From a virus (taxonomy: Duplodnaviria > Caudoviricetes): 52,123 bases of DNA. The DNA lies in IMG/VR virus record IMGVR_UViG_3300042673_000631, positions 1 through 52,123 of that record; one strand, written 5' to 3'. This document shows positions 4,703-37,555 of this stretch, in pieces. The first letter of the stretch is position 1; each line of letters begins with the position of its first letter. The notes beneath the pieces are model-generated. The model saw nothing but the letters and a program-made list of their open reading frames with translations, was not told the DNA's origin and made no database searches. Position numbers and translations under genes: made by a program.

Positions 4703-6408
4703 TGCCGTACAAGATTGAGCAGAGGGCTGACAAGTTTGTTGTTGTTCGTGAAGACGGCGGGAGAGTTGTTGGTACGCATTCGTCTAGGGCTAAGGCGACG
4801 GCTCATGTGCGGGCTTTGTATGCAAATGTTAAGGATGCCATTGAGAAGGCAAAGTTTGCTTCTCGTAGCGAAGCAGGCAAGTACGCCGCTCACATTCGGT
4901 GGATGCGAGAGCGGGGTATGGAACCGTTAACGCCTGATGCTTGGCGTAGCCAGAACGCTCAACCAGTTCAACCGACAAGAAGTTCTTATGAAAGTTCGTT
5001 AGATGCGATCACAAGTTTTGCTAGTGATGAGTTTCAAAGCAGATTGCGTGATGCCGGTGCTTCTATAAGGGGTAGTAGGTATGACGGTGGCAGATTGGTT
5101 CCGTTAGGAGAATATTTAAATATTCAAAACGAAATGTCTGTGGTTAGAGTTCGTAACCCAAATAATCCTGTGAATACAATAATTATTGGTTCTCCTCCTC
5201 TGATGGCGGTTGAACGAGAAGTCAATGAACTGGGCGGGTTAGTGCATAATGCGATACTAGAAAAAATGAAACAAGACGGACATATTTTGCCAAACGGTGA
5301 ATTTAATACTGCCAAACACGAAGCGTTAATGCAAGTTCGTGACGAATCGCAGGCTGTTGTTGATGAGATTAGAGCCAAAGCCAAAGAATTAGGGCTACAA
5401 CAGTTCACTGGTTATGAAAACGGTGCCCAAACTGAAGAAATGAAAATTGGGTGGCGTGGAGATCCTAAAGATATAGATACTGCGGACCTCCCTCCTCGTC
5501 TCAAAAATTTGCACGAAAAATGGGACACACTGCACCAAGAATTTTACGAAATTCCGTGGAGTGAACGAGATGCGAATGTTTCAAAAAGAGAACAGTTAGA
5601 TGCCGCTAAAGACGAATACGAGAAAGCCGCGCTCGCCGATTTTGAAACTTGGTTTAACGCTAACCACAATCCGTCAGGATCTGGAAGTCACAAAGATCAG
5701 TTTTCAAAAATAAGTAATAATCACAACAACAATATGAGAGCGGTCTGGTCTTATCCAAATTATGTGGATCGGTATGCTGAAAGTTTTAGTAAAGTCATGG
5801 AAGATCTAAATATTTCTGCCAAGTCACAAATTGGTAAATCTGACCAAATTGATTTAAGTAGAAGTAGGTTGACCAAAGCAGAAAAAGAAAAGTTTGCTAG
5901 GGACATTCACACATTTTTTCCTGCTAAAGCAATCAAAATTTTTAGTGATAGATATGGCTTACTGAAAGTAACAAAATCCAAAGGTGGTGGGCATTGGAAT
6001 GTTAGTGATGTACAAATTTTGACATCTAATTCGGAAGGTACGAACATACATGAATTTATGCATGCTTTAACTTATGCGGATCGTCGGGCTAACTTTGTGG
6101 AACAAGCATTTCTTATGCGACGGCAAACAGTTGGTGGGCGTAATAATCAGCCTATTAAAGAACGCATTGTTAATGGTTGGGAAAAACCTAAACAAACTTA
6201 TGACGGAGGAAGAGGTAGACGGTTTGACTCTCTATATATTCGTGACGAGTTTGCGGATGAATATACGGGCAGGCATTATTCGTCTGGTCATACCGAAACT
6301 ATGACAACTGGTTTGGATCGCCTGTCTGAAGGTGGCACTCATATTGAAGATCAGGATCACATGAACTCTACTTTAGGTTTGCTTGTAGCGATTGGGTTGG
6401 GACAATGA
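4699..6408 (+). CDS. Tagged head-cargo protein 1: small N-domain, SRSEAG..RW tag, C-terminal zincin metallopeptidase
   Basis: IEKAKFASRSEAGKYAAHIRW at 4843-4902; HEFMH at 6049-6063 with downstream DEYTGRHY...TETMTTG. Confidence 0.7.
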   Translation: MMPYKIEQRADKFVVVREDGGRVVGTHSSRAKATAHVRALYANVKDAIEKAKFASRSEAGKYAAHIRWMRERGMEPLTPDAWRSQNAQPVQPTRSSYESSLDAITSFASDEFQSRLRDAGASIRGSRYDGGRLVPLGEYLNIQNEMSVVRVRNPNNPVNTIIIGSPPLMAVEREVNELGGLVHNAILEKMKQDGHILPNGEFNTAKHEALMQVRDESQAVVDEIRAKAKELGLQQFTGYENGAQTEEMKIGWRGDPKDIDTADLPPRLKNLHEKWDTLHQEFYEIPWSERDANVSKREQLDAAKDEYEKAALADFETWFNANHNPSGSGSHKDQFSKISNNHNNNMRAVWSYPNYVDRYAESFSKVMEDLNISAKSQIGKSDQIDLSRSRLTKAEKEKFARDIHTFFPAKAIKIFSDRYGLLKVTKSKGGGHWNVSDVQILTSNSEGTNIHEFMHALTYADRRANFVEQAFLMRRQTVGGRNNQPIKERIVNGWEKPKQTYDGGRGRRFDSLYIRDEFADEYTGRHYSSGHTETMTTGLDRLSEGGTHIEDQDHMNSTLGLLVAIGLGQ

Positions 6409-9221
6409 TTAGGTTCGGGTATGTCCAGAATGGTGTTCAGCGGTTTGCTGAGTGGACTGAAGAGTCTGGGCTTGTATGCGAAGACGATTTGCTTGATGCC
6501 GTCAATCTTTTGATTGGGGCTAAGGCTCCTGTTAAGTGTTCTTGGGTCGGGTATTTGATGGAAGCGTCTGTTGATACTCCTGTGCAGGCGTGGGGGACTA
6601 TCAATAAGGCATTGAAGTGGTGTAATGGTGTTGAGTTGGTTCGTTGTACGCCACCGTTGATTGAGTATGACGAGTTTTCGGAACCTGAAGAGGATCTGCT
6701 TGAGAAAGCAACTTTTAGTTCACGATCTGAAGCAGGCAGATATGCCGCCCAACAGCGTTGGAAGAACCATGCGAAACAAGAAACGCTGTTAACTCCAACC
6801 GATGATGTTTCTTTGGCACAAAAAACTGGTCAACCAATTACATGGTTGCTTCCTGCTACACGGGATATGCGGTTAAAAGGTTTGTTAAGTAGTTTGGCTC
6901 CTCATTTTATTGCTACTGGTGTGTCAGTCCAAGATTTTGACTCTGTGTTGGGTGATCCAGCAATTAAACCGTTGATTAAATATTTGGAAGATAAAGGTAT
7001 TGTTGATATACCAGATTTTTATAGTTCTGAGGGTGCGACTAATGCTGAGTTGGTTGCTCACGGGTTAATTGTTTCGGCGATGCAAGACCTTGCTTTGAAG
7101 ATGAGGTCTAGCAGTTTGGATGTTGACCGAAGCAAATCGTTCAATCAGGCAATTCAGATCGCTACTGATGGTTTTCCAACAGTCAACATGGGTATTACCG
7201 CTTTTGAGATGATGATGGATGAGGGCGGTCGTTACAAGACACAGTTTGAGGCTGGTGATTCTGGTGGATATTTTAGTCCAGATTTGCGGGCGGCTTTTGA
7301 ATCTAGCGTGTTGGGTTTACATCCTGACATGGATGCGACTAAGCGTCCCGTGTATGGCACTATGCAGACCTCAACAAGTTTAAAAACAAGTGAAGATGCT
7401 CAAATGTACGGTGGCATTGTTTTGCAGTTAAAGAATAATGTTCGGGATCGGACAACTGTTGCTTACAACGATTCGTTGGGTATGGCGACAAGAACTGCTC
7501 CAGCAAACAGTGTTAAAGATGATTCTGGTGGCATGTTTCGTACTGGCATGATTACGGAACCGTTTTTTTATGTTGAGGCTCAGATTCATGGTGGTGTCAA
7601 CATGGATGATGTTGATGCTGTTTGGATTCACAATTTTACGGGTGTAGATGCTGAGGCTCCTCGTCGTGTAAGGGAAGCGTTGGATGCGAATGGGTACACG
7701 GATGTTCCTGTGTTGCGTGTGGGCGTGGACGAACCTGTGGAGAAAGCGAAGTTCAGTTCACGAAGTGAGGCAGGTAGGTATGCGGCTCACATTAGGTGGA
7801 TGAATGAGCGTGGTATGACTCCGATGACCGCCGACCAGTGGAATGCACAGAACTCTGGTGGTTCGGAGCGCATGCGAAAGATTAAAAGCATGCAAGCGGA
7901 TGTTTCTAAGCGACTTAAAAACTTGAATGATGTTTTGGTTAAGTCTGGTTTGGCATCTGAGGGAATGTGGAACCAAGGAAGATTAGATAGTAATGGTGAT
8001 TTAAAGTATGTTGTTGTTGATCCTAAAGATTGGGATAAGACCAGCGTTCCTGAGGTAAGTAAAAGTCCGATGGCGGCATGGCTTGTTGAAGTAGACATAA
8101 AAAACCCAGAGAGTCCTTTTGCAACATATCAAGTTCCTAATGCTGAGGTCATGGCTTTGATGGAGGATGTTAAAACTTTAGGTTCGTTAATTGAAGAAGA
8201 AGTTCAAGAGCGGATCAACGCACAAAATATTCGTTTGGCAACTGGAGCAGAAGCATCCCGTGACTTTACTTTAAAAATTGTTAACGCCCAGAGAGTGATA
8301 ACGCATTACGAAACAATCACTTCCAGATTTTTGAATGATTTCATCACTTTTAAAGCAGATCCGAATGACCCAACACCAAAATTTCAACAATATGTTAAGT
8401 CAGGTCAACCTAAAATGATTGGGAGCCTTGTTGATTATGCCCCAAGTTTGGGAGAATTTATTGAAAGTAATAACAGTGCTGACGAAAAAGTTTTGCTTTC
8501 TGCTTTAATAGAAAAAACGCGATCTTCTGTTCTTGAATTAAACCAATTAGGATTTGAGCAGAACACTTCGGCAAAATATCGGCGTGAAGTTTTGGCTGAA
8601 ATTCGTTCTTTCGGTGCTGACGAAGGTACTCCTTATGAAATTGTTACTGGTTTCAATTTCCCGAATGGGGCACCTGTAGAAGTCCGTATTGCTGATGCGA
8701 TGCAAAATTTACCAACGGCATGGATTGACAATTTAAAAACTTACACGCAAACAAAAACTACGCATAGAGTGTTAAGAGCAAAAACTGTTAACGAAATGCA
8801 ATCAGGGTACATTGAAGCGAATCATATAATTCAAACTTCGGCAAATGCTCAGACTGCTTTTGTTATCCACGAATTGGTTCATGCTGTTGAAGCGTCAAGC
8901 CCAGTCATGCGAGCAATGGTTCATTCTTTTGGTGTCAATAGAAGAGTCGGTAATTTTAGACCTTCAGAAGAAAAGTTTGGTAGCACTTTTGCTCAAAGGT
9001 TACAAACTGGGATTTGGGAAGAATCTGGGCGATCTGGTTTCGTTGAAGATAGTTATTTTGATAAGTATTCTGGGCGTGTGTACGGCGGGTTCGCGTATTC
9101 TGCTCACGAACAGTTGACTACGGGGACAGATTATTCGTTGTTTGTCAATACGATTCGTCCGCATGACCGTATTGACTCGGATCAGTTGACTTTTACATTA
9201 GGAATGTGGGCTTCAGCATGA
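6405..9221 (+). CDS. Tagged head-cargo polyprotein 2: partner domain, tag, DUF3626-like domain, tag, zincin metallopeptidase
   Basis: Tags at 6702-6761 and 7740-7799; YKTQFE/RPVYG/RTT..DS/YVEAQIHGGV motifs; HELVH 8868-8882. Confidence 0.7.
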   Translation: MIRFGYVQNGVQRFAEWTEESGLVCEDDLLDAVNLLIGAKAPVKCSWVGYLMEASVDTPVQAWGTINKALKWCNGVELVRCTPPLIEYDEFSEPEEDLLEKATFSSRSEAGRYAAQQRWKNHAKQETLLTPTDDVSLAQKTGQPITWLLPATRDMRLKGLLSSLAPHFIATGVSVQDFDSVLGDPAIKPLIKYLEDKGIVDIPDFYSSEGATNAELVAHGLIVSAMQDLALKMRSSSLDVDRSKSFNQAIQIATDGFPTVNMGITAFEMMMDEGGRYKTQFEAGDSGGYFSPDLRAAFESSVLGLHPDMDATKRPVYGTMQTSTSLKTSEDAQMYGGIVLQLKNNVRDRTTVAYNDSLGMATRTAPANSVKDDSGGMFRTGMITEPFFYVEAQIHGGVNMDDVDAVWIHNFTGVDAEAPRRVREALDANGYTDVPVLRVGVDEPVEKAKFSSRSEAGRYAAHIRWMNERGMTPMTADQWNAQNSGGSERMRKIKSMQADVSKRLKNLNDVLVKSGLASEGMWNQGRLDSNGDLKYVVVDPKDWDKTSVPEVSKSPMAAWLVEVDIKNPESPFATYQVPNAEVMALMEDVKTLGSLIEEEVQERINAQNIRLATGAEASRDFTLKIVNAQRVITHYETITSRFLNDFITFKADPNDPTPKFQQYVKSGQPKMIGSLVDYAPSLGEFIESNNSADEKVLLSALIEKTRSSVLELNQLGFEQNTSAKYRREVLAEIRSFGADEGTPYEIVTGFNFPNGAPVEVRIADAMQNLPTAWIDNLKTYTQTKTTHRVLRAKTVNEMQSGYIEANHIIQTSANAQTAFVIHELVHAVEASSPVMRAMVHSFGVNRRVGNFRPSEEKFGSTFAQRLQTGIWEESGRSGFVEDSYFDKYSGRVYGGFAYSAHEQLTTGTDYSLFVNTIRPHDRIDSDQLTFTLGMWASA

Positions 9222-10192
9222 AATTAGATTGGTTGACCGTTGACGGTGACAGTATTTCGTGGGATAACGGGGTGGTTGATGCCCCGCAAGAGTTTTTGGA
9301 CAATGTGGACTTTCTGGTTGATGCGAAGGTTCGTGTTCGGTCGCCTCGGTTTTATTTTGCTGAGGAGGTTGCTGGTATGGACACGATGTTGGGGGCTTTG
9401 TTGACGATTGAGTTTTTGTTGGATGTTTTGGGTGTTGGTTTGGTTGAGGCTCCGATGCCGTTTGGGGTGTCGGATGTTTTTGTGACTGATAATCACGATG
9501 TGTTTGATGGTTCGGGTGAGTTTGAGAAGGCTATGTCTCGGAGTGAAGCGGGCAGGTATGCGGCGGAACAGCGTTGGAAGAACCATGCGAAGAAGGTTGA
9601 TCCTGTTCGGGTGCTTGATCCGCAGTATCAGAAAGTTGCTGATCGGATTAACGCTGGTACAAAATCAGTAACTGATGCTGGTTTCCAAATTGAAATAATC
9701 AATTCTCCTGAAGATCGGCAACGCATATTGGAGATGCATACAAAATTTAAAGATTTTGTTGTTGAACAAAGGAATTTGTGGCGAGATACAAAAGGAAAAG
9801 AAGGTAAATATTTTTCTGATAGAACAATTTCTGGTCTTCAGTTAATGACAACTTCTATAAAAAGGGGAGCAACACGAGGGACAACAATTGTTGTTCACGA
9901 TGGATCATTAGTTGCTGGTGCCGCTCTTGCTCATATTCAGACAAACAGTATGGCTGATGGTAAACCTATGTCAATTTGGCTTATGGGGTCGGCTCATATA
10001 GTTGAAGGTGCTGGTTCTGCTATGTATGGCGCGCTTTTGAAATGGGGTCAATCTCAAGGTGTTACATCTATTGAATTAGATCCGTTACCTGATGCTAAAA
10101 CTTTTTGGCAGACAAAAATGAGAATGATTTGGACTGGTGAAGAAATGGTTTATTCTGATAGCAAAATTGGAATGATTGGGGCGTTGAAATGA
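9218..10192 (+). CDS. Tagged head-cargo protein 3: partner domain, tag, GNAT-like acetyltransferase
   Basis: FEKAMSRSEAGRYAAEQRWKNH at 9524-9586; GAGSAMYGALLKWG...AKTFW GNAT motif A/B-like; ATGA overlap start 9218. Confidence 0.65.
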   Translation: MKLDWLTVDGDSISWDNGVVDAPQEFLDNVDFLVDAKVRVRSPRFYFAEEVAGMDTMLGALLTIEFLLDVLGVGLVEAPMPFGVSDVFVTDNHDVFDGSGEFEKAMSRSEAGRYAAEQRWKNHAKKVDPVRVLDPQYQKVADRINAGTKSVTDAGFQIEIINSPEDRQRILEMHTKFKDFVVEQRNLWRDTKGKEGKYFSDRTISGLQLMTTSIKRGATRGTTIVVHDGSLVAGAALAHIQTNSMADGKPMSIWLMGSAHIVEGAGSAMYGALLKWGQSQGVTSIELDPLPDAKTFWQTKMRMIWTGEEMVYSDSKIGMIGALK

Positions 10193-11268
10193 TCGGGTCG
10201 TTGGATGATATGGATGATGCGATGCCTGATCTATTGGATTGGCTTCGTTCTAATGTTGAGTTTGAGAAAGCAAAGTTCAGTTCTCGTAGTGAGGCTGGGA
10301 AGTATGCGGCTCATATTAGGTGGATGAACCAGAGGGGTATGACTCCGTTGTCTGCTGAGGCTTGGACGGCTAGTCAGAGTGCTGATGCGACACCTGTTGT
10401 TACGGCTCCGACTGTACCGTCACGGTTTACTGCTACTGGTATGTGGTGGGATGCACAACCGCCCGCTCTTGCTTCTATGAAAGATGCGATCACATGGTTG
10501 CAGGATAAATGGGGTGGCACAACAAAAGATCAACGGCGTAGATTCAGAGTAAAACTGAATGCTATGGGAAGTAACCCCAAAACGGATCATTTGGCTCAAG
10601 CGTATGCCATTGCAATGGATAACTTGTTTAAATTTGCACCTATCGTGGCGGAAACTATTGAAGAAGTAGTTTGGGATGAAAATCAAATACGGAATTCGTG
10701 GGGTCAGGCTAGTCGTGATGGTCACAGTCTAAATTTCATTGCAAGCACTTTTGTACAAACTTTGATACAGCCAGATGGAACAGTTATCCCTTCGGAGCAA
10801 TATGCGTTGTTTGCAAAAGAACAAGCATTTTCAACGGGGTTCAAATCTTCAAGGTCGCTGAGTAGCACTTTTTATCACGAGTTTGGGCACCACATTGGGT
10901 TTGCCGCTGGTAATAAAGCGTTGTACGGCGATGTTAAAGAAGTTAGACCATCCTTGTATGCGGATTCAGATGATCGTAAAAAGTACAATCGTGAACTTGC
11001 CAAATTGATTAGCCCGATTCTTAAAGAGCATTACGGAGATGAAAGTCGTGCAAGAATTGAACTTGATGATAAAGCGCAATATAAAATACGGGGAAAAATA
11101 GAAGAAGACATATCCAAATATGCTTTGACTAACTACGACGAATTGGTTGCGGAATCAGCGGCACAGTATTTTGCCGCCAAATTTGAACCTGACCAACCGC
11201 CAGCGTCACCGTTAGCAATCAAAATTGTTGAGACATTATTGAATTACATAGAAGGAGAGAACAAATGA
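10189..11268 (+). CDS. Tagged head-cargo protein 4: tag, zincin metallopeptidase
   Basis: FEKAKFSSRSEAGKYAAHIRW at 10264-10323; HEFGH 10876-10890 and ISKYALTNYDELVAE third-ligand motif. Confidence 0.7.
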   Translation: MIGSLDDMDDAMPDLLDWLRSNVEFEKAKFSSRSEAGKYAAHIRWMNQRGMTPLSAEAWTASQSADATPVVTAPTVPSRFTATGMWWDAQPPALASMKDAITWLQDKWGGTTKDQRRRFRVKLNAMGSNPKTDHLAQAYAIAMDNLFKFAPIVAETIEEVVWDENQIRNSWGQASRDGHSLNFIASTFVQTLIQPDGTVIPSEQYALFAKEQAFSTGFKSSRSLSSTFYHEFGHHIGFAAGNKALYGDVKEVRPSLYADSDDRKKYNRELAKLISPILKEHYGDESRARIELDDKAQYKIRGKIEEDISKYALTNYDELVAESAAQYFAAKFEPDQPPASPLAIKIVETLLNYIEGENK

Positions 11269-11680: not shown

Positions 11681-11710
11681 TGCTTATCGGGTTTACTGTA
11701 AGGTGACCGC

Positions 11711-13720
11711 ATGCATACACACGAAATAGACCAGTGGATTAACGGCGATCTGGCGTGGGAAGATTTGTCTGTTGAAGCGCAACGAAGTGTTGATGCTGAT
11801 GCGATGAAGGCTGAACCTGTCGCCGAAATGGAACTGGTTCACAAGTCGGTTGCTGAGAAGCGATTCACTTTGGGTCCGTGGTATATCCCTAATCGGTTGG
11901 ATGCTCATAATGAGTGGACGGACGCTGACGAGTTGCAGGCTGGTTTGTGGGATTATGTTCGTAAGGGTGATCGTGGTATCCGTTTACAGCACAATCGTGA
12001 CATTGTGGCTGGTGAATGGGTTGAGGCTATGCAACTGCCTGTACCGATGCGAATGCAGAAAGCGGCTGACGGCGGGGATGTTGAATATCCTGAGGGGACA
12101 GTGTTTTTGGGTGTTGTTTGGAAGCAGTGGGCGTGGGATCTGGTGAAGAACGGCAAAATTAAAGGTTTTTCTATTGGTGGTTCGTCGGCTCGTCTGCCAA
12201 TTGAGCCTGTTTCTAAGGCTGTCGGGTTCAAACCGATGTTTATTCCTGCGTTGATTCGGGTTTCAGGTAAGTCTTTTGCTGTCCGTCCAGATGGTGGAGG
12301 GGTTCGGGTTTCGTCGGGTTCTGATGCTGTTGTGTTTGATCCGTATCGGGCTGATGTGGTTGCTAAGTCTGTTTCTGGAGCGCAGTTTGCTGATGCGAAG
12401 ACGATGGTGGCGATTTCTAAAGCGATCTTGACTGGCAATGTTGATGCTGGAATGTGGGCTGATACTGGGGTTTCGTGGGTTTTTGTTAAGGCTAAGTTCA
12501 GTTCTCGTTCTGAGGCGGCTCGTTACGCCGCTCATATTCGTTGGGCTACTGAACGAGGTGAAACCCCGATGGGTGCGGGCGAGTTTTCGGAACAAATTAA
12601 GTCGTCTGCGGATTATGCGATGATGAATTTGAAGAAAAATCGTGATGCTTTGGCTTCCAAGATGGAGTTTCCGCATAACGATCTTCCTGTTGGTCCGTTG
12701 GGTTTGCCAACTTCTCCTGCTGGTAAGTCTTTGTTTAACACTTCTCCGTCGCTTGGCGGGCATGTTGATTTTGACGCTATGGGCAAGTACATGATGGATC
12801 GTTTAGATCAACCGAACATGGGTTTTGGTAAGGCGGGGTTGCCTACAGAAGCACCGTATGATGTTCTTCGTCGTTTTATGACTCCTGAACGGCGGGCTTT
12901 GCACGATGCGATCGTTGACGCTCATTTGGCTGGCAAAACGGCTAGAGATGATACCCCCGAATACACTTGGCTTGGTGGTGGTGGTGCTTCTGGTAAAACC
13001 AGCATTTTGGAATCTGGTGCCGCTAGTGTTCCGACCCGTGTTTTGAAGAATGGTTCGGCTGTACCAAGTGGTGATATGCACTCTGTTGAGATCAATGCTG
13101 ACGAAATCAAAGATTTGTTACCAGAGTTTTTGGCGTTGACAAAGGGTGGGGAAAAAAGGGTTTATGTCACTGCTGACGGTAGAGAAAAGCCTTATGAATT
13201 GGGTCGTTCAACTGAGCGGGCACGATTTGTTGCGGCTGGTTTTACTCACGAAGAGTCGTCTATCCTTGCGAAGCGTATTAACTCCGAGGCTATGTACAGA
13301 GGTTTGGACATTGTGATGGATGGTACTGCTGACGGCAAACCGGGGGCACAAGCGAAGAAGGTTGCTGTGGCTCAAGCAAACGGCTATAAAACTCGTTTGA
13401 TTATGGTGACTATCCCTACCGAAGTGGCTATTGTTCGTTCTAATGAGCGAGGTATTACTTCGGGGCGTAAGGTTCCTGAGTTCGCTTTGCGTGACGCTCA
13501 TGTTGGGGCTTCGGCAAGATTTTTGGAAACGGCACCGCTGTATGACTCTTTTGAGGCTTATGATAACTCAGGGCGACCGCCACAAAAATTTGTAAGTAAG
13601 AGTACCAAGGGTGGTCGGGTTACTATTCAAAATAAAGCCCTGTATGATGCTTTCTTAGCGAAGGCTGGCGAAAGTTTGGGCGAGTCAACAGCAAGGGATG
13701 AACCGTGGACATTAGCGTAA
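11711..13720 (+). CDS. XkdF-like (S78-type) prohead protease fused via tag to zeta-toxin-like P-loop kinase
   Basis: N-term GPWYIPNRLDAHNE...LQHN...GT..W..VKNGKIKGFSIGG; tag 12485-12544; GGGGASGKT 12974-13000, INADEIK, HEESS, VMDGT, GRKVP, YDNSG. Confidence 0.8.
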   Translation: MHTHEIDQWINGDLAWEDLSVEAQRSVDADAMKAEPVAEMELVHKSVAEKRFTLGPWYIPNRLDAHNEWTDADELQAGLWDYVRKGDRGIRLQHNRDIVAGEWVEAMQLPVPMRMQKAADGGDVEYPEGTVFLGVVWKQWAWDLVKNGKIKGFSIGGSSARLPIEPVSKAVGFKPMFIPALIRVSGKSFAVRPDGGGVRVSSGSDAVVFDPYRADVVAKSVSGAQFADAKTMVAISKAILTGNVDAGMWADTGVSWVFVKAKFSSRSEAARYAAHIRWATERGETPMGAGEFSEQIKSSADYAMMNLKKNRDALASKMEFPHNDLPVGPLGLPTSPAGKSLFNTSPSLGGHVDFDAMGKYMMDRLDQPNMGFGKAGLPTEAPYDVLRRFMTPERRALHDAIVDAHLAGKTARDDTPEYTWLGGGGASGKTSILESGAASVPTRVLKNGSAVPSGDMHSVEINADEIKDLLPEFLALTKGGEKRVYVTADGREKPYELGRSTERARFVAAGFTHEESSILAKRINSEAMYRGLDIVMDGTADGKPGAQAKKVAVAQANGYKTRLIMVTIPTEVAIVRSNERGITSGRKVPEFALRDAHVGASARFLETAPLYDSFEAYDNSGRPPQKFVSKSTKGGRVTIQNKALYDAFLAKAGESLGESTARDEPWTLA

Positions 13721-14029: not shown

Positions 14030-14413
14030 ATGAAACCAATTGCTGTATACGGAACCCTGATAAAAGGATTCCACAACTCACGGCTGTGGGATGGGCTTGC
14101 TACCTACGAGGAGTGCATCATCCACGATTTCCGTCTTGTCACTCACGGGTGGTACCCGTATGCGATACCAGACGAGGGATCAATAACAGTCGGTCAAATT
14201 ATTACGCCGACAAGTGAAGTTAACGCTTCAACGATCTTGTCTCGGCTTGATTATTTAGAAGGTGTTCCCGATCATTACAGTCGTGAATCTGCAACTGTTG
14301 AACTTGAGAATGGTGCGATTGTTACTGCATGGATTTATGTTCCTGTGAGTGATGAATCAAGTTTGGATCCTGTGCCAGAAAACGACTGGCGACTTTACGC
14401 AAGTCTTGTTTAG
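14030..14413 (+). CDS. Gamma-glutamylcyclotransferase (AIG2/GGCT-like)
   Basis: IAVYGTLIKGFHN, YPYA, LDYLEG..HYSR, AWIYV; GGAGGG RBS. Confidence 0.85.
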   Translation: MKPIAVYGTLIKGFHNSRLWDGLATYEECIIHDFRLVTHGWYPYAIPDEGSITVGQIITPTSEVNASTILSRLDYLEGVPDHYSRESATVELENGAIVTAWIYVPVSDESSLDPVPENDWRLYASLV

Positions 14414-14450: not shown

Positions 14451-15149
14451 ATGGCTTCGCGGAAAATGGTAAACATGAACATTGAAGAGACTTCTGGTGT
14501 TGACCATCCCGCGCACATGGACGAAGGATGGATCCTTATGAAGAACTCTGGTTTAAACACCGAAGATTTTGAAACGATTGAAAAAATGGTCGCTTTGGAA
14601 TCAGAACTTGCTGACGCTCAGGCTCGCCTTGCCTCTTTAGAAACTGAAGAGACAACCGAAGAGACAACCGAAGACATGGACTACATGGACGACGATGCGA
14701 TGATGAAGTCGGCTCCGCCTGCTGTTCGTGAAGCATTGTTGAAGGCTCGTAACGAGGCTTTTGTTGCTCAGGAAGAACTACGCAAAGAGCGTGAAGTCCG
14801 TCTTGACGCTCACGCAATTGCTAAGAGCATGGACGATTATGGCAATCTTGCTATTGACCACGAAGAATTTGGTCCTGCCCTTCGCCGTTTGGAAGAACTT
14901 GACGCAACAGTCGTTGAGATCATCGCTAAGGCTTTGCAGTCCGCTAACGCTCAGGCTGAATCAGCCAACATTTTTGCCGAAATCGGCTCTTCATACATGC
15001 CAAATACTGCTGGCAGTTTCCAGAAGATTGAATCGCTCGCTAAGTCCGCTGTGACCAAGGGCGAATATAAGACCGTTGAGCAAGCAATCGCTGGCTTGAT
15101 TGAAACCAACCCATCGTTGTACGCAGAGTACATCGCTGAAACCCGCTGA
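14451..15149 (+). CDS. Capsid scaffolding protein
   Basis: IEETSGVDHPA N-terminus, coiled-coil, acidic, C-terminal NPSLYAEY; upstream of capsid genes. Confidence 0.7.
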   Translation: MASRKMVNMNIEETSGVDHPAHMDEGWILMKNSGLNTEDFETIEKMVALESELADAQARLASLETEETTEETTEDMDYMDDDAMMKSAPPAVREALLKARNEAFVAQEELRKEREVRLDAHAIAKSMDDYGNLAIDHEEFGPALRRLEELDATVVEIIAKALQSANAQAESANIFAEIGSSYMPNTAGSFQKIESLAKSAVTKGEYKTVEQAIAGLIETNPSLYAEYIAETR

Positions 15150-15580: not shown

Positions 15581-16531
15581 ATGCCCCAGCCCACACAAAA
15601 TCAGGTACATGTTGATGCGATTCTGACGAACATCAGTGTCGCTTACATGCAAAAAGCCGAAAACTTCATTGCAAACAAGATCTTCCCGATCGTTCCTGTT
15701 GAGAAGCAGTCGGACAAGTTCTTCAAGTACACCAAGAACGACTGGTTCCGTGACGAAGCACAGCGACGCGCTGATGCGACGGAATCTGCTGGTGGCGGTT
15801 ACAACTTGTCAACCGATTCGTACAACGCTGAAGTGTGGGCTTTCCACAAGGATGTTGGCGATCAGACTCGTGCAAATGCTGATGCTCCTATCAATGTGGA
15901 TCGTGAAGCGGTTGAGTTCATTACGAGCCGTTTGTTGCTCAAGATGGAAACTGAATTCGTTTCAAGTTATTTCACGAGTGGCATTTGGGCTACTGACAAC
16001 ACTCCGTCAAACTTGTGGTCGGATTACACCAACAGTGACCCGTTGAACGATGTTGAAGATGCGAAGCGAGCAATCCTTTCCACTACTGGTTTTGAACCGA
16101 ACACGCTTGTGCTTGGTTACGATGTTTTCAAGGAATTGAAGAATCACCCAGATCTCGTTGACCGTATCAAGTACACCTCGTCTTCGGTTATCACGACTGA
16201 CATGATCGCTCGTATGTTTGATGTTGATCGTGTTGTGGTTTCAAAGGCTGTCAAGGCAACCAACAATGAAGGTGCCACTGGTGCTTATGACTTCACTGCT
16301 GGTAAGAATGCGCTCTTGTGCTATTCGGCTCCGTCACCGGGTCTTCTCCAGCCGTCTGCTGGTTACATCATGTCTTGGACTGGTGTTTCTGGTGGTCTTG
16401 GTCAGACGATCGGTTCAAGCCGTTTCCGTATGGAATCAGTGAAGGCTGACCGTATTGAAGCAGAAATGGCTTTTGACATGAAGGTCGTTGCCGCTGACCT
16501 CGGTTACTTCTTCGCCAGCGTGGTTTCGTGA
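15581..16531 (+). CDS. Major capsid protein (HK97 fold)
   Basis: HVDAILTNISVAY...FIANKIFPIVPV...PNTLVLG...GYFFASVV; AAGGA RBS. Confidence 0.85.
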   Translation: MPQPTQNQVHVDAILTNISVAYMQKAENFIANKIFPIVPVEKQSDKFFKYTKNDWFRDEAQRRADATESAGGGYNLSTDSYNAEVWAFHKDVGDQTRANADAPINVDREAVEFITSRLLLKMETEFVSSYFTSGIWATDNTPSNLWSDYTNSDPLNDVEDAKRAILSTTGFEPNTLVLGYDVFKELKNHPDLVDRIKYTSSSVITTDMIARMFDVDRVVVSKAVKATNNEGATGAYDFTAGKNALLCYSAPSPGLLQPSAGYIMSWTGVSGGLGQTIGSSRFRMESVKADRIEAEMAFDMKVVAADLGYFFASVVS

Positions 16532-28527: not shown

Positions 28528-28572
28528 GTCTTGTAATAGAAAACACAATCAACATTCAACAAAGGACTTATT

Positions 28573-30460: not shown

Positions 30461-30478
30461 GGTTGATATAGTTGGGTC

Positions 30479-32847: not shown

Positions 32848-32850
32848 GTT

Positions 32851-33048: not shown

Positions 33049-33110
33049 GGTTTTGTTACTGTGGTGATGCGAATACCACTATTGGGGTAGCGTTCACTGC
33101 GGAGGTAACG

Positions 33111-33374
33111 ATGAGCGAACTTTTGAAGAAGTTGAATCAGACTGGGACTACAAAAATTTCTCGGTGTGGCGTTGCTTTGTTAAAGGCAAATCTTGATTCT
33201 GCTGAGTGGGATCAGGTTGCCGTCATTATTGGCGAGATGCGAAACGATCGTCTAAGGGCTACGGCTCAAGGGCATACGGCTGTTTGGTTGTCCGATGTTC
33301 TCAAAGAGCATGGGCATTCAGTGTCTTGCCATACAATCCAACGACATATACGGAAGGCGTGTTCTTGTGAGTGA
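33111..33374 (+). CDS. Small HTH/Cys protein preceding metallophosphoesterase
   Basis: GGAGG RBS; TIQRHIRKACSC. Confidence 0.6.
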   Translation: MSELLKKLNQTGTTKISRCGVALLKANLDSAEWDQVAVIIGEMRNDRLRATAQGHTAVWLSDVLKEHGHSVSCHTIQRHIRKACSCE

Positions 33375-34738: not shown

Positions 34739-34868
34739 CTATTACTGTTGGGAATGCGATCTTGATTGGCGGGGCGGTAAGCATTGTCCTGTGTGTGGCG
34801 GTTTGGGTGAGGAACAGGATGATTTTCCACTAAATACCGCTCAACATGATGTTGACTAGCATACGGTT

Positions 34869-36488
34869 GTGGATTTTGACCTGACTGAGTTAGAGAAAAA
34901 GATGTCTCCTTCGGAGGCTGGTCGTTACGCCGCTGAGATGCGATGGCGTACTCATTCTGGTGCGCCTCGGATGGCTGGGGATAACACGATTTCGTTGCCT
35001 GATCGGTTGAATCGGGCTACTGACAACATGTTGGCTAAGGGTGGCAGTGTTTCTCATTTGGGTGTTGATGAGAGTGACGCTGTTTTGCGTGGTGCGATGA
35101 TGATGGTGGAGCGCACTTTTAGTGAGGCTCGTATGAATCAGCGGGATTACGAGTTGAATGTGCATGCTCAGAAGTCGTGGAATGAGGCTCGTAAGGATCC
35201 TTCGGCGATGCTTCATGTGGTGCGTGTTGGTCGGAATATTGCGGCGGTTGCGGTTACGGTTCGTCCGAATGATGCGACGGTGGAGATTCGGCATTTGAGT
35301 TCTACTGGGGTGTTGAAGGGTGCTGGTTCGGCTTTGTTGGGGTCAATCATTAAGAAGGGTGTGAAGGGTGGGCGTACTACTTTTCGGGTTACGCCGTCTG
35401 AGGAATCTAAGTCTTTTTGGGATGAGTACGGTTTTAGTGGTGCTGTTTATGACCAGTTGGGTAATCCTGATGGGTCGCAGGATTTGGTTGTGAAGCCTGA
35501 GTGGTTGCGTGTTCTTAAGGCTATGTCAAGGTCTGAGGCGGGGAAGGTAGCGGCTCAGGCACGATGGAAGAACCATGTAAAAACAACTGATGCGACACCT
35601 GTTGCTCCGCCTGTTCAGCCGTCTACCCCTAAAAAAATTGCTACTAAGCAGGGCATCGGTCGTGCGTTGAATGATGCGGGGATTAAGAAAACTGGGTATA
35701 TTTATTCGTCCAGAATTCGTGGTTACGCTACACCGACTTCGGGTTGGGAATCTGTGGAAACTGAGAACGGTTTTAAAGTTACTTTCAAGATGGTTAGTGG
35801 TGGAGTGCGAGCGCATTATTCCCAATCTCAAGAAGTGAAAGATCGTATATCGGCTGTTAATCAAGAATATATTGATGGTCAACTGAAAAGAATGCATGAT
35901 GCTCTTAAGGCAAAAGGGTATGACACTTCGTTTGATGGTGAAACAATTTTCGTTAATAACACGAGTCCAGTTTTGGGAGTTTCTTCAAGATCTTCTAGTC
36001 CCGCCAAAATGAGGCAAATAGAGTCAGTGACAACACGGTTTACCGAAATGTCCAACAGTGTAGCCAAGGCTTTTTCTGAAGAATATATGAAAAAGGCGGG
36101 TCTAAAATTAACCGAACAAGGTTACGGTCAAAAAGAGGCTACAGAGGCTGAGTTAAAACTTGGAAAAGAAAAGAAAGACTTCCTCATAAAAATTTTGGAT
36201 GAGCAAGGCAAGAAGGCTCAAGGTGCGATAGAAAATCTTGCTCAAGGATTTATGCCTTTATCGCAAAAAGATATCTTGCAAGGTGTCCGCTCATTTTTAA
36301 AAAGCAAAGAAAAAGAAACTGTTCGGGAAATGCAAAGCAAAGGTTTAGGGTCTTCTAAAAAAGAAGATACTACCGTTGGTTCTATGGTTTATTCAACTAC
36401 GCGAGCGGTTTTAGAAAATGCACGACTGTTTATTGATTTAGCAATAGAACGAGCCACGCCTCTAGTAGAAAAACAACCGAAAGGGTAG
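34869..36488 (+). CDS. Tagged cargo polyprotein 6: tag, GNAT, tag, unknown domains
   Basis: LEKKMSPSEAGRYAAEMRW 34893-34946; GAGSALLGSII...SKSFWDEYGF; VLKAMSRSEAGKVAAQARWKNH 35514-35576. Confidence 0.65.
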   Translation: MDFDLTELEKKMSPSEAGRYAAEMRWRTHSGAPRMAGDNTISLPDRLNRATDNMLAKGGSVSHLGVDESDAVLRGAMMMVERTFSEARMNQRDYELNVHAQKSWNEARKDPSAMLHVVRVGRNIAAVAVTVRPNDATVEIRHLSSTGVLKGAGSALLGSIIKKGVKGGRTTFRVTPSEESKSFWDEYGFSGAVYDQLGNPDGSQDLVVKPEWLRVLKAMSRSEAGKVAAQARWKNHVKTTDATPVAPPVQPSTPKKIATKQGIGRALNDAGIKKTGYIYSSRIRGYATPTSGWESVETENGFKVTFKMVSGGVRAHYSQSQEVKDRISAVNQEYIDGQLKRMHDALKAKGYDTSFDGETIFVNNTSPVLGVSSRSSSPAKMRQIESVTTRFTEMSNSVAKAFSEEYMKKAGLKLTEQGYGQKEATEAELKLGKEKKDFLIKILDEQGKKAQGAIENLAQGFMPLSQKDILQGVRSFLKSKEKETVREMQSKGLGSSKKEDTTVGSMVYSTTRAVLENARLFIDLAIERATPLVEKQPKG

Positions 36489-36490
36489 TT

Positions 36491-37555
36491 ATGAATAAGT
36501 CATTGGAAACTGTGTTGAAGGCTTTGGAGCAGGACGCTTTGGCGTTTTGTTCGGAGTCGGATTGGGCGATCGTTGTTGCTGAATGCGAGAGGGCTGGGAA
36601 TGTTCGTCGTATTTCTAAGTCGGCTCAGGTGATTTTGCAGAAGGCTATGTCTCGTTCGGAGGCTGGTCGGTTTGCGGCTGAACAACGGTGGAAGAATCAT
36701 CAGAAGCGGACTGCAACATATTCTGGTGTTGAACGAAACACTACTGATGAAAGTCGTAAGTGGAAATTTAGTACCGATAAACCGAGCCATTTGGATGAGG
36801 CTTCAAATAATGCTCGTTTGGAATCGTGGACTTCCGACAGTGAAGTTCCAGATCCTTCTGGTGATGGTTATTGGACTAAAGGTGATTGGAATTCAGATGA
36901 TCCTGATTACGGTCGTCGTTATTCTGATTACGACGAACTTAGTGGTCCTGAATCAAATGATGCTGGGATTGATTATCAACTAAGCGCACAGGCTAGAGAT
37001 GCTGGTATCAGTTTCGGTCCTAGGCGGAACCCTTTTCAAGATATGGAGCCTTTTTCTGATGAAGTTTTTAATGACATTAAAAGTGGTAAAACAACACCAA
37101 TCGCCACAGGTTTTGATGAAGTAAGAAAAGGTATTGACGAGGCTTTTGCAAAAATTCTTGAAGCAGAATCTGATCCGATTAAAGTAAAGAGTGCCATGAA
37201 AGTTAAAAGGAGACTTTTAACAAATATGGCTCAGCAAGGCAAGTTGGCTCAAGAGGCTCTTGAAGAATTGGTTTCAGCAAGTGATCCTAGACAGGCAATG
37301 AAAGAATTGAAAGCCGCAGGAGCGCACCTAAGTATTGAGGCTCGTCAAGCAAGGCTAAAGCAATTTGAGCGATATGAAAAGCCAGAAGCAAGCGTTACCA
37401 TTCGGGCGGCACTTAACCTTGAAAACGCAATAGTGGAAAAACTTTATGGCATTATTAGCGAACAGGCTTATGGTGTTGGCAAAAGGCTTGGAACTTTTAG
37501 GGGCGGTAATGGTCATTTTGATGTGGGCGGTGTCATAAATCCTGACGGGTACTGA
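36491..37555 (+). CDS. Tagged cargo protein 7: N-domain, tag, acidic region, helical domain
   Basis: ILQKAMSRSEAGRFAAEQRWKNH 36638-36700. Confidence 0.65.
   Translation: MNKSLETVLKALEQDALAFCSESDWAIVVAECERAGNVRRISKSAQVILQKAMSRSEAGRFAAEQRWKNHQKRTATYSGVERNTTDESRKWKFSTDKPSHLDEASNNARLESWTSDSEVPDPSGDGYWTKGDWNSDDPDYGRRYSDYDELSGPESNDAGIDYQLSAQARDAGISFGPRRNPFQDMEPFSDEVFNDIKSGKTTPIATGFDEVRKGIDEAFAKILEAESDPIKVKSAMKVKRRLLTNMAQQGKLAQEALEELVSASDPRQAMKELKAAGAHLSIEARQARLKQFERYEKPEASVTIRAALNLENAIVEKLYGIISEQAYGVGKRLGTFRGGNGHFDVGGVINPDGY

What the first reader, a model, noticed from the sequence alone, without database searches (positions are those of the whole stretch)
4843..36691. Nine-copy 'xKA-SRSEAGRYAAxxRW' peptide tag heading diverse effector domains: candidate tag-addressed capsid cargo system
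Seen: a ~20-aa motif recurs at 4843-4902, 6702-6761, 7740-7799, 9524-9577, 10264-10323, 12485-12544, 34893-34946, 35514-35567 and 36638-36691, in 7 ORFs. Codons differ at synonymous sites, so it is conserved as protein rather than as a DNA repeat. Each copy sits immediately N-terminal to a different cargo: zincin, DUF3626-like, zincin, GNAT, zincin, zeta-like kinase, GNAT, and two unknowns. Five of the ORFs lie between MuF and the scaffold, and one is the prohead protease itself. Known: MuF-associated polymorphic toxins and polyvalent proteins carry similar effectors and are thought to be injected with DNA. Inference: here cargo is not fused to MuF but to a short portable address tag (procapsid/scaffold- or DNA-binding basic helix), analogous to the T4 capsid-targeting sequence. 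This would let the phage load an interchangeable arsenal of effectors into the virion. I do not recognise this tag as a described family.
Basis: partly seen in the sequence, partly recalled or inferred. Interest (0 to 1): 0.95.

Follow-up and report, generated by a model that had tools for sequence, protein, structure and literature searches.

The report
Shared peptide header on phage effector cassettes
A 25-residue peptide, conserved as protein, sits in front of every enzyme-sized effector domain in the variable head-region genes of a group of uncultured phages, and probably acts as a common handle by which the phage loads or processes its injected arsenal.

Summary
Exactly nine copies of h-E-K-A-x-F-x-S-R-S-E-A-G-R-Y-A-A-x-x-R-W lie at the stated places in seven + strand ORFs (57.7-84.1 bits; next best 5.3). 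Selection acts on the protein: Ser uses TCN and AGY, Arg uses CGN and AGR. No Pfam model or PDB sequence matches the header alone.

It is widespread: 294 protein clusters, none in 185,579 prokaryote genomes or in isolated phages. Every long locus belongs to one phage lineage with a Mu-type portal, MuF, an XkdF-type protease and a lambda-E-type capsid. WhiB suggests an actinobacterial host.

The header precedes domain-sized units: SopF-like ART/DUF3626, VIP2-like ART, GNAT, zeta kinase, zincins, HNH. It marks where conserved N-terminal parts give way to variable effectors. AlphaFold models it as a lone helix in linkers.

Sister lineages carry a different, mutually exclusive header (K-H-L-x-G-Q-H-D-Q-S-S-H-G-N-W-A). 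A third group has no header and fuses zeta directly to MuF.

The address-tag reading is plausible but unproven. Headers kept inside MuF and protease fusions, one per domain, fit a processing or demarcation role about as well. I call it a new variant of a known kind.

The parts
4825..4947 (+). header copy 1 (long type, KAKFASRSEAGKYAAHIRW...), in ORF 4699-6408
   Evidence: HMM 78.1 bits; translation
6681..6803 (+). header copy 2 (KATFSSRSEAGRYAAQQRWKNH), in ORF 6405-9221, before the DUF3626/SopF-like domain
   Evidence: 74.5 bits; AF2 helix 107-123 between low-pLDDT linkers
7722..7844 (+). header copy 3 (long type), in ORF 6405-9221, before the helical + HExxH domain
   Evidence: 84.1 bits; AF2 helix 453-468 after low-pLDDT linker 441-449
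9521..9619 (+). header copy 4 (short type, KAMSRSEAGRYAAEQRWKNH), in ORF 9206-10192
   Evidence: 62.6 bits
10252..10368 (+). header copy 5 (long type), in ORF 10189-11268
   Evidence: 76.4 bits
12467..12586 (+). header copy 6 (long type), between the protease and zeta domains of ORF 11711-13720
   Evidence: 71.7 bits; AF2 helix 266-282
34890..34988 (+). header copy 7 (short type), 8 residues from the N-terminus of ORF 34869-36488
   Evidence: 57.7 bits
35493..35609 (+). header copy 8 (short type), in the middle of ORF 34869-36488
   Evidence: 61.4 bits
36617..36733 (+). header copy 9 (short type), in ORF 36491-37555
   Evidence: 65.2 bits
2356..3834 (+). portal protein (Mu type)
   Evidence: Pfam Portal_Mu 1e-30, phrog_113 1e-85
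3803..4702 (+). MuF-like head morphogenesis protein, not fused to cargo here
   Evidence: Pfam Phage_Mu_F 8.7e-13
4699..6408 (+). cargo ORF A (569 aa): conserved N-terminal module 1-42 (phrog_3684), header, helical region, HExxH domain
6405..9221 (+). cargo ORF B (938 aa): N-terminal alpha/beta domain, header, DUF3626/SopF-like ART domain, header, helical + HExxH domain
9206..10192 (+). cargo ORF C (328 aa): N-terminal domain homologous to that of B, header, GNAT-like domain (weak)
10189..11268 (+). cargo ORF D (359 aa): short leader, header, HExxH domain (M34/ATLF-like by leads only)
11711..13720 (+). ORF E (669 aa): XkdF-type prohead protease (residues 40-160), header (253-292), zeta-toxin kinase (508-604)
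   Evidence: Pfam Peptidase_S78_2 4.6e-9 and Zeta_toxin 4.2e-16
14451..15149 (+). acidic coiled-coil protein (phrog_13547), probable scaffold, with a nearly invariant N-terminal patch
15581..16531 (+). major capsid protein (lambda E type, PF03864 in relatives)
   Evidence: phrog_1005 4.6e-99
34869..36488 (+). cargo ORF F (539 aa): header, GNAT-like domain (paralogue of C), header, unknown domain
36491..37555 (+). cargo ORF G (354 aa): N-terminal module, header, unknown domain (paralogue of the second half of F)

Best explanation
The motif is the conserved 'header' of modular effector cassettes. Each cassette is [header - flexible tether - effector domain]. Cassettes occur as single ORFs, strung into polyproteins, or fused behind MuF or the prohead protease.

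I think the header most likely works as a docking peptide. It would be recognised by one common phage-encoded partner in the assembling prohead, so that any effector carrying it is recruited into the capsid and later leaves with the DNA. That is an address tag, functionally like the T4 capsid targeting sequence, and probably coupled to proteolytic separation of the cassettes.

Shown:
- Nine real copies under protein-level selection.
- One header per domain-sized unit.
- The header lies at the boundary between conserved and variable sequence.
- It is modelled as a lone helix in linkers.
- The partner domains are effector-type enzymes.
- Most copies lie in the head module, in ORFs whose stops and starts overlap.
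- Header types are lineage-specific and mutually exclusive.
- A header-less relative fuses zeta to MuF.

Inferred: presence in the virion, the docking partner, cleavage, and ejection.
For: Copy number and selection:
- Nine copies score 57.7-84.1 bits against a next best of 5.3.
- Synonymous codons are scrambled.
- Across 403 instances (398 distinct stretches) the core is R97% S95% E75% A99% G88% R87% Y89% A98% A100% x x R99% W99%. The conserved residues lie on nearly all faces of the helix and small residues sit in the middle, which suggests a tightly enclosed binding epitope.

Position in proteins:
- In 229 proteins with 403 headers, a median of 51 residues precedes the first header and a median of 285 follows the last. 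Median spacing is 282. Only 3 of 229 have fewer than 60 residues after the last header, and 17 of 229 start with it.
- The 30 residues behind the header are poor in hydrophobic residues: 18.9%, against 32.3% before it and 27.7% overall.
- AF2 puts both headers of ORF B, and the header of ORF E, as single helices flanked by stretches of pLDDT below 50.

Boundary role: in the gene after MuF, similarity to ORF A stops exactly at the W of R-W in 13 of 18 loci.

Context:
- Effector content in relatives.
- Head-module position and a hypervariable cargo region. In L001 the portal is 98% and the MCP 100% identical to the window, but the cargo only 47-65%.
- All longer loci found through the header share this head gene set.

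Comparative pattern:
- Sister lineages with the same head genes carry another header, K-H-L-x-G-Q-H-D-Q-S-S-H-G-N-W-A, in the same arrangement.
- Of 166 loci, 97 have type 1, 21 have type 2 and 0 have both.
- Header-less L133 and L135 fuse zeta directly to MuF.
- Together these suggest that a header substitutes for a covalent link to a head protein.
Against: - No data show that these proteins are in virions.
- Headers are retained where packaging should already be secured. L028 has MuF followed by 7 copies at E<=5. Protease-header-zeta is kept across phages whose protease-zeta ORF is only 38-55% identical to the window's.
- One header per domain is more than an address needs.
- The header decays when zeta is lost (L001/L003, L004/L006). 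So it is not what targets the protease.
- Two of the seven window ORFs, and similar genes elsewhere, lie outside the head module: between the metallophosphoesterase and replication genes, or next to the terminase small subunit gene. Their timing of expression is unknown.
- The loci are not independent. Several are the same contig in two collections, and header type switches only about 1-3 times on head-protein trees.
Confidence: 0.42

Rival explanations
1. The header is a processing or demarcation site, a 'pre-toxin' motif. It marks where polyproteins and fusions are cut, either by the XkdF-type prohead protease or by the HExxH peptidases that so often follow it. Each effector domain is thereby released. 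N-terminal leaders, MuF or the protease provide the packaging. The header also marks the boundary at which cassettes are swapped.
For: - There is one header per domain-sized unit, with regular spacing. Median spacing is 282 residues. In L028 and L030 the spacing is about 290-305 residues.
- Headers persist inside the MuF and protease fusions.
- The header decays once nothing lies downstream.
- Similarity between alleles ends at the header, as at the pre-toxin domains of polymorphic toxins, which were proposed to be sites of proteolytic processing (PMC3482391, passages read).
- HExxH domains are the commonest neighbours: 3 in the window, 4 in L028 and 2 in L030.
- Iyer et al. proposed autoproteolysis of polyvalent proteins by their metallopeptidase domains (PMC5512222, passages read).
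Against: - About 20 nearly invariant residues forming a helix is far more than known prohead-protease sites need, and proteases bind extended strands.
- 17 of 229 proteins begin with the header, where a cut upstream of it would remove nothing.
- No cleavage data exist.
- This rival is not exclusive of the best explanation. In T4 the targeting peptide and the cleavage site are one element (PMC9026906, passages read).
Confidence: 0.28
2. The header is a small nucleic-acid-binding or oligomerising element: a ribbon-helix(-helix)-like unit. It would tether each effector to DNA, in the capsid or in the host, or link the cargo proteins to each other.
For: - The peptide is basic. The variant in L028 and L030 is more basic still.
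- The K-A-K-F-S-S stretch alternates polar and hydrophobic residues like an RHH strand, and S-R-S-E looks like an RHH helix N-cap. This resemblance is recalled, not tested.
- One data source names three header-bearing proteins 'Arc/MetJ-type ribbon-helix-helix regulator'.
- In the long type a second helix follows a G-x-T turn (AF2 helices 266-282 and 289-317 in ORF E).
Against: - No Pfam RHH family, nor any other, matches header segments even at E<=10.
- AF2 models no strand in the header.
- The short type lacks two strand residues.
- DNA enters a preformed procapsid, so DNA binding cannot load cargo.
- The alternative header in sister phages is His-rich and not basic. That fits a lineage-specific protein partner better than DNA.
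Confidence: 0.1
3. The header acts in the infected cell after delivery. For example, it might bind a common host factor, help the ejected and unfolded effectors to refold, or serve as an export signal for toxins aimed at other organisms (the 'Trojan horse' idea proposed for ADP-ribosyltransferases of freshwater phages).
For: - Near-invariance across phages would suit a very conserved host partner.
- Some header genes lie outside the head module.
- Kavagutti et al. suggested that VIP2-like ARTs of freshwater phages act on eukaryotic predators (PMC6802176, passages read).
Against: - The effectors have unrelated chemistries, so a shared host target is unlikely.
- Sister phages with near-identical head genes use an unrelated header, and the two never mix in one locus. 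This points to a phage-side partner.
- Most copies sit in ORFs that overlap head-assembly genes.
Confidence: 0.08
4. The header has no biochemical role. It is a conserved DNA linker kept only because it promotes recombination between cassettes.
For: - Similarity between alleles ends at the header.
- Exact runs of 14-25 nt are shared by some copies.
Against: - Codons are scrambled, and Ser and Arg switch codon families. Conservation is therefore at the amino-acid level.
- The header is lost quickly when the downstream domain is lost.
Confidence: 0.03

Closest known systems
T4 capsid targeting sequence (CTS) of internal proteins IPI-III and Alt
   Same: A short portable peptide in front of unrelated cargo. 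It brings the cargo into the prohead core and lets a phage carry varied injected proteins. Cargo includes an ADP-ribosyltransferase (PMC9026906, passages read).
   Different: - The CTS is 10-19 residues, strictly N-terminal, weakly conserved, and removed by gp21. This header has about 20 nearly invariant residues plus flanks, is mostly internal, and repeats before each domain.
- I saw no likeness between the nine copies or the consensus and the 10-19-residue N-terminal propeptides described in the review; no alignment was run.
- The phage is a lambda-E/Mu-portal type, not T4-like.
- Packaging and cleavage are untested here.
MuF polymorphic toxins and phage polyvalent proteins (Zhang et al. 2012; Jamet et al. 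2017; Iyer et al. 2017)
   Same: - The same effector repertoire (ART, zeta-like, GNAT, metallopeptidase, HNH, ParB) next to portal and MuF.
- Predicted packaging into the head.
- Rapid shuffling of C-terminal domains.
- L028 is a true MuF-polyvalent fusion with an ART-PolyVal domain.
   Different: - In the window the cargo is not fused to MuF.
- My term searches in two of these papers found no punctuating header. In PMC5512222 'linker' and 'DUF3626' gave 0 hits. In PMC5576092 'conserved motif', 'linker', 'pre-toxin' and 'cleav' gave 0 hits.
- I did not read the papers in full, and their supplements were not seen.
Pre-toxin (PT) domains and demarcation motifs of polymorphic toxins (PT-VENN, DUF637 and others)
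   Same: A conserved element directly N-terminal to the variable toxin domain. It marks the recombination boundary and was proposed as a processing site (PMC3482391, passages read). The boundary behaviour was seen here.
   Different: - Those belong to secreted T5SS, T6SS and T7SS toxins of bacteria, with one per protein.
- This one is in a phage head module and is repeated.
- No Pfam model of any kind matches it.
Cargo-loading peptides of encapsulins, and the C-terminal targeting tail of the HK97 prohead protease (both recalled, not looked up here)
   Same: A short peptide on a flexible tether that docks cargo to the inner face of an HK97-fold shell or its scaffold.
   Different: - Those are terminal, single or clustered, and their binding sites are known.
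- Here the partner is unknown.
- The protease of this lineage does not depend on the header.
Pfam DUF5872 (PF19197)
   Same: In some relatives (P0024, P0033) the DUF5872 match runs over a header copy. DUF5872, DUF6321 and DUF6496 are further small modules in the same polyproteins.
   Different: - Header segments of the window do not match DUF5872 even at E<=10.
- The DUF5872 N-terminal half (the L-Y-x-x-V-K-x-E-A-K-K-K-F-x-x-Y-P-S-A-Y-A-N part) is absent from the window's proteins.

Membership tests
MuF polymorphic toxins | N-terminal MuF domain covalently fused to a C-terminal toxin domain | tested here: not met
   The window's MuF ORF (3803-4702) ends before the cargo ORFs and has only the Phage_Mu_F domain. 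The feature is met in relatives: L028, L133 and L135.
Polyvalent proteins (Iyer et al. 2017) | Two or more effector-type domains in one polypeptide, encoded by a phage next to portal/terminase-type packaging genes | tested here: met
   ORF B has a DUF3626/SopF-like ART domain plus an HExxH domain. ORF E has protease plus zeta. The portal and MuF genes are adjacent. ART-PolyVal is found in 2 of 87 relatives and in L028.
T4-type capsid targeting sequence | Located at the extreme N-terminus of the cargo precursor | tested here: not met
   Only 17 of 229 proteins have the header within 12 residues of the start. The median is 51 residues before it, and many copies are internal.
T4-type capsid targeting sequence | Sufficient for incorporation into proheads and removed by the prohead protease | not testable with these tools
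   Needs virion proteomics or reporter fusions. The complex prediction gave no verdict.
Pre-toxin / demarcation motifs of polymorphic toxins | Conserved element immediately N-terminal to the variable toxin domain, at the boundary of allele similarity | tested here: met
   Similarity of post-MuF genes to ORF A ends exactly at the header's R-W in 13 of 18 loci, and within 19 residues in 4 more.
Pre-toxin / demarcation motifs of polymorphic toxins | Sequence membership in a described PT family | tested here: not met
   No Pfam family at E<=10 for five header segments.
Ribbon-helix-helix (Arc/MetJ/CopG) superfamily | Strand-helix-helix fold recognised by RHH profiles | tested here: not met
   No Pfam hit at E<=10. 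AF2 models a helix without a strand. Only three source-given names point to RHH. Dimer formation was not tested.
Pfam DUF5872 | Match to the PF19197 profile | tested here: not met
   No match for the window's header segments or its whole proteins. There is overlap in relatives only.

The most novel reading that the evidence does not exclude
These abundant uncultured phages run a plug-and-play cargo system. A peptide of about 25 residues would be necessary and sufficient to load any protein into the procapsid, and to have it delivered with the DNA, by docking to a conserved patch of a head-assembly protein. The invariant N-terminal patch of the acidic scaffold is my lead. Sister lineages would have evolved orthogonal header-receptor pairs (S-R-S-E-A-G-R-Y-A-A-x-x-R-W versus K-H-L-x-G-Q-H-D-Q-S-S-H-G-N-W-A), so that cargo sets are private to a lineage.
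Probability: 0.3. Interest if true: 0.85.

Novelty: new variant of a known kind. Interest (0 to 1): 0.68.

Why it matters
How tailed phages other than T4 choose which proteins to pack into the head and inject is largely unknown. For MuF-associated toxins and polyvalent proteins, packaging is still only a prediction.

A short, sharply defined header gives a direct experimental handle. It is present in about 300 protein clusters, has an orthogonal counterpart in sister phages, and has a header-less, MuF-fused relative as a natural control. Tag swaps, reporter loading and pull-downs could all use it.

If it is an address or processing tag, it would explain how these phages keep a rapidly exchangeable arsenal next to almost invariant head genes. 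It could also serve as a tool for loading proteins into capsids.

It also offers a simple sequence marker for finding candidate injected effectors in metagenomes. Many of the domains behind it have no known family.

Tried and rejected
- Nucleotide and protein searches of isolated phages with the cargo region, ORF D and a header segment found nothing real. The only hits, in Pseudomonas Bruynogheviruses at E 0.2, fall in a non-coding frame with a stop and were rejected.
- A profile search of PDB sequences gave only a 10-residue chance match in a mandelate racemase-like protein (E 0.19).
- The protein atlas gave no usable hit for the header. For ORF D it gave only a sub-threshold lead, 'Pro-Pro endopeptidase family' at 0.88.
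- The top hit of the representative search, P0123 (43 stretches), is an unrelated tandem-repeat protein and was dropped from all counts.
- Promoter and terminator scans gave counts at or below the shuffles and were not used.
- Complex prediction with MCP alignment + scaffold alignment + header alignment, header as partner, returned 'no answer' (score 0.00, mark 0.32). It counts neither for nor against binding. The job used three chains, unlike the tool's calibration.
- The AF2 model of ORF E was poor for the protease domain (pLDDT below 50 over residues 31-271). I therefore did not test header against protease.
- Co-variation of header type with head proteins. Only the scaffold has columns with disjoint residue sets between header types: 9 columns, against 0 in MCP, decoration protein and protease. 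One is D/E versus H/N inside an otherwise conserved patch. With only about 2 independent switches, and a scaffold that diverges faster than the others, about that many columns could arise by descent alone. This is my rough estimate, not a computed one. I keep it as a lead, not as evidence.
- A regex for relaxed type-1 headers found none in 20 sister loci.
- String searches for both header sequences in papers found none. The searches for DUF5872, DUF6321 and DUF6496 found one unrelated paper.
- The 628-aa ORF after the terminase-small-subunit-like gene in L018 has no counterpart in the window but also no Pfam hit. I therefore cannot say that it is the large terminase.
- Paper supplements were not requested. 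Those of PMC5512222 and PMC5576092 may list domains or motifs that I could not see.

Full report
**1. Observation**

I aligned them (A1). K, S, S-E-A, A-A and R-W are invariant.

Two sub-types are visible:
- A long one, K-A-K-F-S-S-R-S-E-A-G-R-Y-A-A-H-I-R-W-M-N-E-R-G-M-T-P, at 4843, 7740, 10264 and 12485.
- A short one, K-A-M-S-R-S-E-A-G-R-Y-A-A-E-Q-R-W-K-N-H, at 9524, 34893, 35514 and 36638. The copy at 6702 is intermediate.

An HMM of the nine copies, run over all six frames of the window, returns nine hits of 57.7-84.1 bits and then nothing above 5.3 bits. The genome search on the record finds the same nine.

The 14-codon core is 67% identical in nucleotides. Only 37% of identical residues share a codon. 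Serine is written with TCN and AGY, and arginine with CGN and AGR.

**2. The genome**

The window is a whole IMG/VR virus record of 52,123 bases. It is linear, with a CheckV estimate of 98%. All genes I used lie on the + strand.

Head module:
- Mu-type portal, 2356-3834
- MuF, 3803-4702
- Four cargo ORFs: A 4699-6408, B 6405-9221, C 9206-10192, D 10189-11268. Their stops and starts overlap.
- ORF E, 11711-13720, holding an XkdF-type prohead protease, a header and a zeta-toxin kinase
- Gamma-glutamyl cyclotransferase
- An acidic coiled-coil protein, 14451-15149 (phrog_13547), which I take to be the scaffold
- A 131-aa protein that PHROGs calls scaffold. By my reading of its sequence alone it looks like a decoration protein; I ran no test of this.
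- Major capsid protein, 15581-16531

These calls rest.

Tail and lysis genes follow, then a metallophosphoesterase (33295-34533). Next come the second pair of header ORFs (F 34869-36488, G 36491-37555), and then the replication genes.

A WhiB gene at 50397-50876 points to an actinobacterial host. So do the nearest isolates by capsid protein, which are Arthrobacter and Microbacterium phages at about 50% identity. The host assignment is an inference.

**3. How widespread the header is**

- A word-indexed search with the profile found 166 proteins at E<=0.01 among 8000 candidates.
- The exhaustive search of 1.84 billion representatives found 294 clusters at E<=0.001. Its top hit, P0123, is an unrelated tandem repeat and was dropped.
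- Pattern scans found 32 loci in viral contigs and 54 in metagenome contigs.
- They found none in one genome for each of 185,579 prokaryote species.
- No isolated phage in the held collection has it. The weak Pseudomonas phage hits are spurious.
- No Pfam model matches header segments even at E<=10, and no PDB sequence does.
- Text searches for the header string returned no paper.

Every locus long enough to judge has the same head genes as the window: portal 54-99% and MCP 76-100% identical. Of the 54 metagenome loci, 15 had no lineage marker. Thirteen of these are under 5 kb, and two are about 8 kb.

**4. Anatomy**

In 229 proteins I counted 403 headers: 101 proteins with one, 93 with two, 25 with three, 9 with four and 1 with five.
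- The median stretch before the first header is 51 residues.
- The median stretch after the last is 285 residues.
- The median spacing is 282 residues.
- Only 3 of 229 have fewer than 60 residues after the last header.
- 17 of 229 begin with the header.

The header is therefore tied to what lies downstream of it.

The 30 residues behind it are poor in hydrophobic residues: 18.9%, against 32.3% before it and 27.7% overall.

AlphaFold2 models:
- ORF B (mean pLDDT 79) has three confident domains. Both headers are single helices (107-123 and 453-468) next to stretches of pLDDT below 50 (86-104, 117-128, 441-449).
- In ORF E the header is helix 266-282.

The consensus over 403 instances (398 distinct stretches) is h-E-K-A-x-F-x-S-R-S-E-A-G-R-Y-A-A-x-x-R-W-K-G/N-H-x-K. 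Six positions are at 97% or more. Conserved residues cover most faces of the helix, and small residues lie in the middle. To me that suggests a peptide gripped closely by a partner.

**5. What follows the header**

In the window:
- DUF3626 (Pfam), whose model resembles the Salmonella ADP-ribosyltransferase SopF (Foldseek E 1e-4).
- Zeta toxin.
- Three HExxH domains with no Pfam hit.
- A weak GNAT (E 0.11).
- Two paralogous unknown domains.

In 148 representative relatives, the Pfam tally was:

| Family | Proteins |
|---|---|
| DUF3626 | 21 |
| ADPrib_exo_Tox | 13 |
| GNAT families | about 10 |
| Zeta | 5 |
| Peptidase_S78_2 | 5 |
| M90 | 4 |
| ATLF | 3 |
| HNH | 2 |
| DRAT | 2 |
| ART-PolyVal | 2 |
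| ART | 2 |
| Topoisomerase IB | 1 |
| MuF | 1 |

The enrichment for effector-type enzymes is real.

**6. Polymorphism**

Cargo genes vary far more than their neighbours. In L001 the portal is 98% and the MCP 100% identical to the window, but the cargo ORFs only 47-65%.

The gene after MuF begins in most loci with the same small module (M-P-Y/W-K/H-..., phrog_3684), followed by the header. In 13 of 18 such genes the similarity to ORF A stops exactly at the W of R-W. In 4 more it stops within 19 residues. One is full-length.

This is the architecture of polymorphic toxins, with the header at the swap point.

**7. Fusions**

- L028 encodes MuF fused to a 2275-residue polyprotein. It holds four divergent ATLF/M90-like HExxH domains, two further domains (one hitting ART-PolyVal) and a last domain. 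Each is preceded by a more basic header variant, every 290-305 residues.
- The protease occurs as protease-header-zeta in the window, L007, L009, L014, L016 and L026, with the header intact.
- It also occurs as a protease that ends just after a degenerate header, without zeta (L001/L003 and L004/L006).

So the header serves the downstream domain and not the protease. It is also kept in fusions where packaging should need no extra tag.

**8. Sister lineages**

This is the most informative result. I fetched 80 loci through the capsid protein.

Many have the same head gene set (MCP 68-80% identical) but no type-1 header within 10 kb upstream, even with a relaxed pattern. Their cargo ORFs instead carry another recurrent peptide, h-x-K-H-L-x-G-Q-H-D-Q-S-S-H-G-N/S-W-A. 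It occurs 1-4 times per ORF, one per domain-sized unit, and also in front of zeta. It too has no Pfam model, no isolate match and no string hit in papers.

Over 166 loci, 97 have type 1, 21 have type 2 and none has both. The loci are not independent, since several contigs occur in two collections.

A third group (L133, L135) has no header and fuses zeta directly to MuF.

The same cargo is thus attached in three ways: covalently to MuF, behind header 2, or behind header 1. That pattern fits a header that replaces a covalent link to a head protein. It also fits a partner encoded by the phage rather than DNA or a host factor.

**9. The partner**

The partner is unknown.
- The single complex prediction (MCP + scaffold + header) gave no verdict.
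- Header type changes 1-3 times on head-protein trees.
- Only the scaffold has columns that separate the two types. There are 9, one of them D/E versus H/N in its otherwise conserved N-terminal patch.
- With about two independent switches this number could arise by descent alone. I keep it as a lead.

**10. Weighing**

| Reading | Weight |
|---|---|
| Address tag, possibly coupled to cleavage as in T4 (PMC9026906, passages) | 0.42 |
| Pure processing or demarcation role | 0.28 |
| RHH-like nucleic-acid binding or oligomerisation | 0.10 |
| Host-side role | 0.08 |
| DNA-only recombination linker | 0.03 |

The first two are not exclusive. I put about 0.7 on the broader statement that the header is a recognition peptide by which phage machinery handles head-module effectors.

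**11. Novelty**

Packaged effectors, MuF toxins, polyvalent proteins, pre-toxin motifs and capsid targeting peptides are all known kinds (PMC3482391, PMC5512222, PMC5576092 and PMC9026906; passages or term searches only).

In my searches I found no description of the following:
- This header.
- Its orthogonal counterpart in sister phages.
- The one-header-per-domain punctuation.

I did not read the papers in full, and their supplements were closed. I call it a new variant of a known kind.

Noticed in passing
L123, L125, L128, L143, L164, L150, L173, L137, L107 (cargo ORFs upstream of the MCP at about 10001): Sister phages carry a second recurrent header, h-x-K-H-L-x-G-Q-H-D-Q-S-S-H-G-N/S-W-A (variants K-H-G-E-H-D-Q-S-S-H-G-S-W-A and K-H-P-G-H-A-D-Q-S-V-H-G-G). 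It occurs 1-4 times per ORF and never together with the window's header in one locus. Its three His plus Asp might bind a metal. No Pfam, isolate or paper match.
   Followed up: partly
L133:2196-3938 and L135:637-2373: A header-less relative fuses the zeta toxin directly to MuF (MuF about residues 80-298, zeta about 316-577). In this group the protease sits at the C-terminus of a 549-702-aa ORF.
   Followed up: partly
L028:2399-9226 and L030:10797-15635: Giant polyproteins (2275 and 1612 aa) hold a more basic header variant (K-A-Y-K-R-K-Y-A-T-R-E-E-A-A-R-A-A-A-N-A-R-W-G-N-R) every 290-305 residues. It heads four and two diverged ATLF/M90-like HExxH paralogues. L028 starts with MuF and includes an ART-PolyVal domain.
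   Followed up: partly
window 4699-4824 (residues 1-42 of ORF A) and the gene after MuF in 15 of 18 loci: A conserved small N-terminal module (M-P-Y/W-K/H-...-V-V-V-R-...-G-K-V-V-G-x-H-...-A-Q-L-x-A-L-Y, phrog_3684, function unknown) always opens the first gene after MuF, directly before the header.
   Followed up: partly
window 14451-15149: An acidic coiled-coil protein (phrog_13547), probably the true scaffold. Its first 30 or so residues (R-K-M-V ... E-T-S-G-V-D-H-P-A-H-x-x-E-G-W-I-x-M-K) are nearly invariant across the lineage while the rest diverges. One patch residue is D/E in header-1 phages and H/N in header-2 phages.
   Followed up: partly
window 15168-15563: PHROGs calls this 131-aa protein a head scaffolding protein (phrog_673). 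By my reading of its sequence alone it looks more like a small decoration or cement protein next to the MCP. I ran no test of this.
   Followed up: no
window 14030-14413: A gamma-glutamyl cyclotransferase-like gene (phrog_2520, 1.2e-16) sits inside the head module between the protease and the scaffold, and is conserved there in relatives.
   Followed up: no
window 51600-52079 and the ends of the record: A terminase-small-subunit-like HTH gene (by my reading of its sequence) lies at the very end of the linear record, and I saw no large-terminase-sized ORF in the window. In L018 a 628-aa ORF follows the homologous gene. It has no counterpart in the window and no Pfam hit. The record may lack several kb, which in relatives also hold header genes.
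   Followed up: partly
window 43410-45142: An amidoligase-like gene (phrog_2443) is directly followed by a class-II glutamine amidotransferase gene (Pfam GATase_6, 5e-17).
   Followed up: no
window 50397-50876; 45846-46568; 47784-48935: WhiB-like transcription factor (Pfam 7.4e-13), ParB N-terminal domain protein, and a DNA methyltransferase.
   Followed up: no
relatives P0033, P0037, P0024, P0084; L018:11435-12067: Further small modules of unknown function (DUF5872, DUF6321, DUF6496) are interspersed with headers in the same polyproteins. In L018 they also occur as a free 210-aa protein without a header.
   Followed up: no
one of the 87 proteins of alignment A3: One header-bearing protein matches the eukaryotic-type topoisomerase I catalytic core (Pfam Topoisom_I, 5.8e-19). 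This is an unusual cargo.
   Followed up: no
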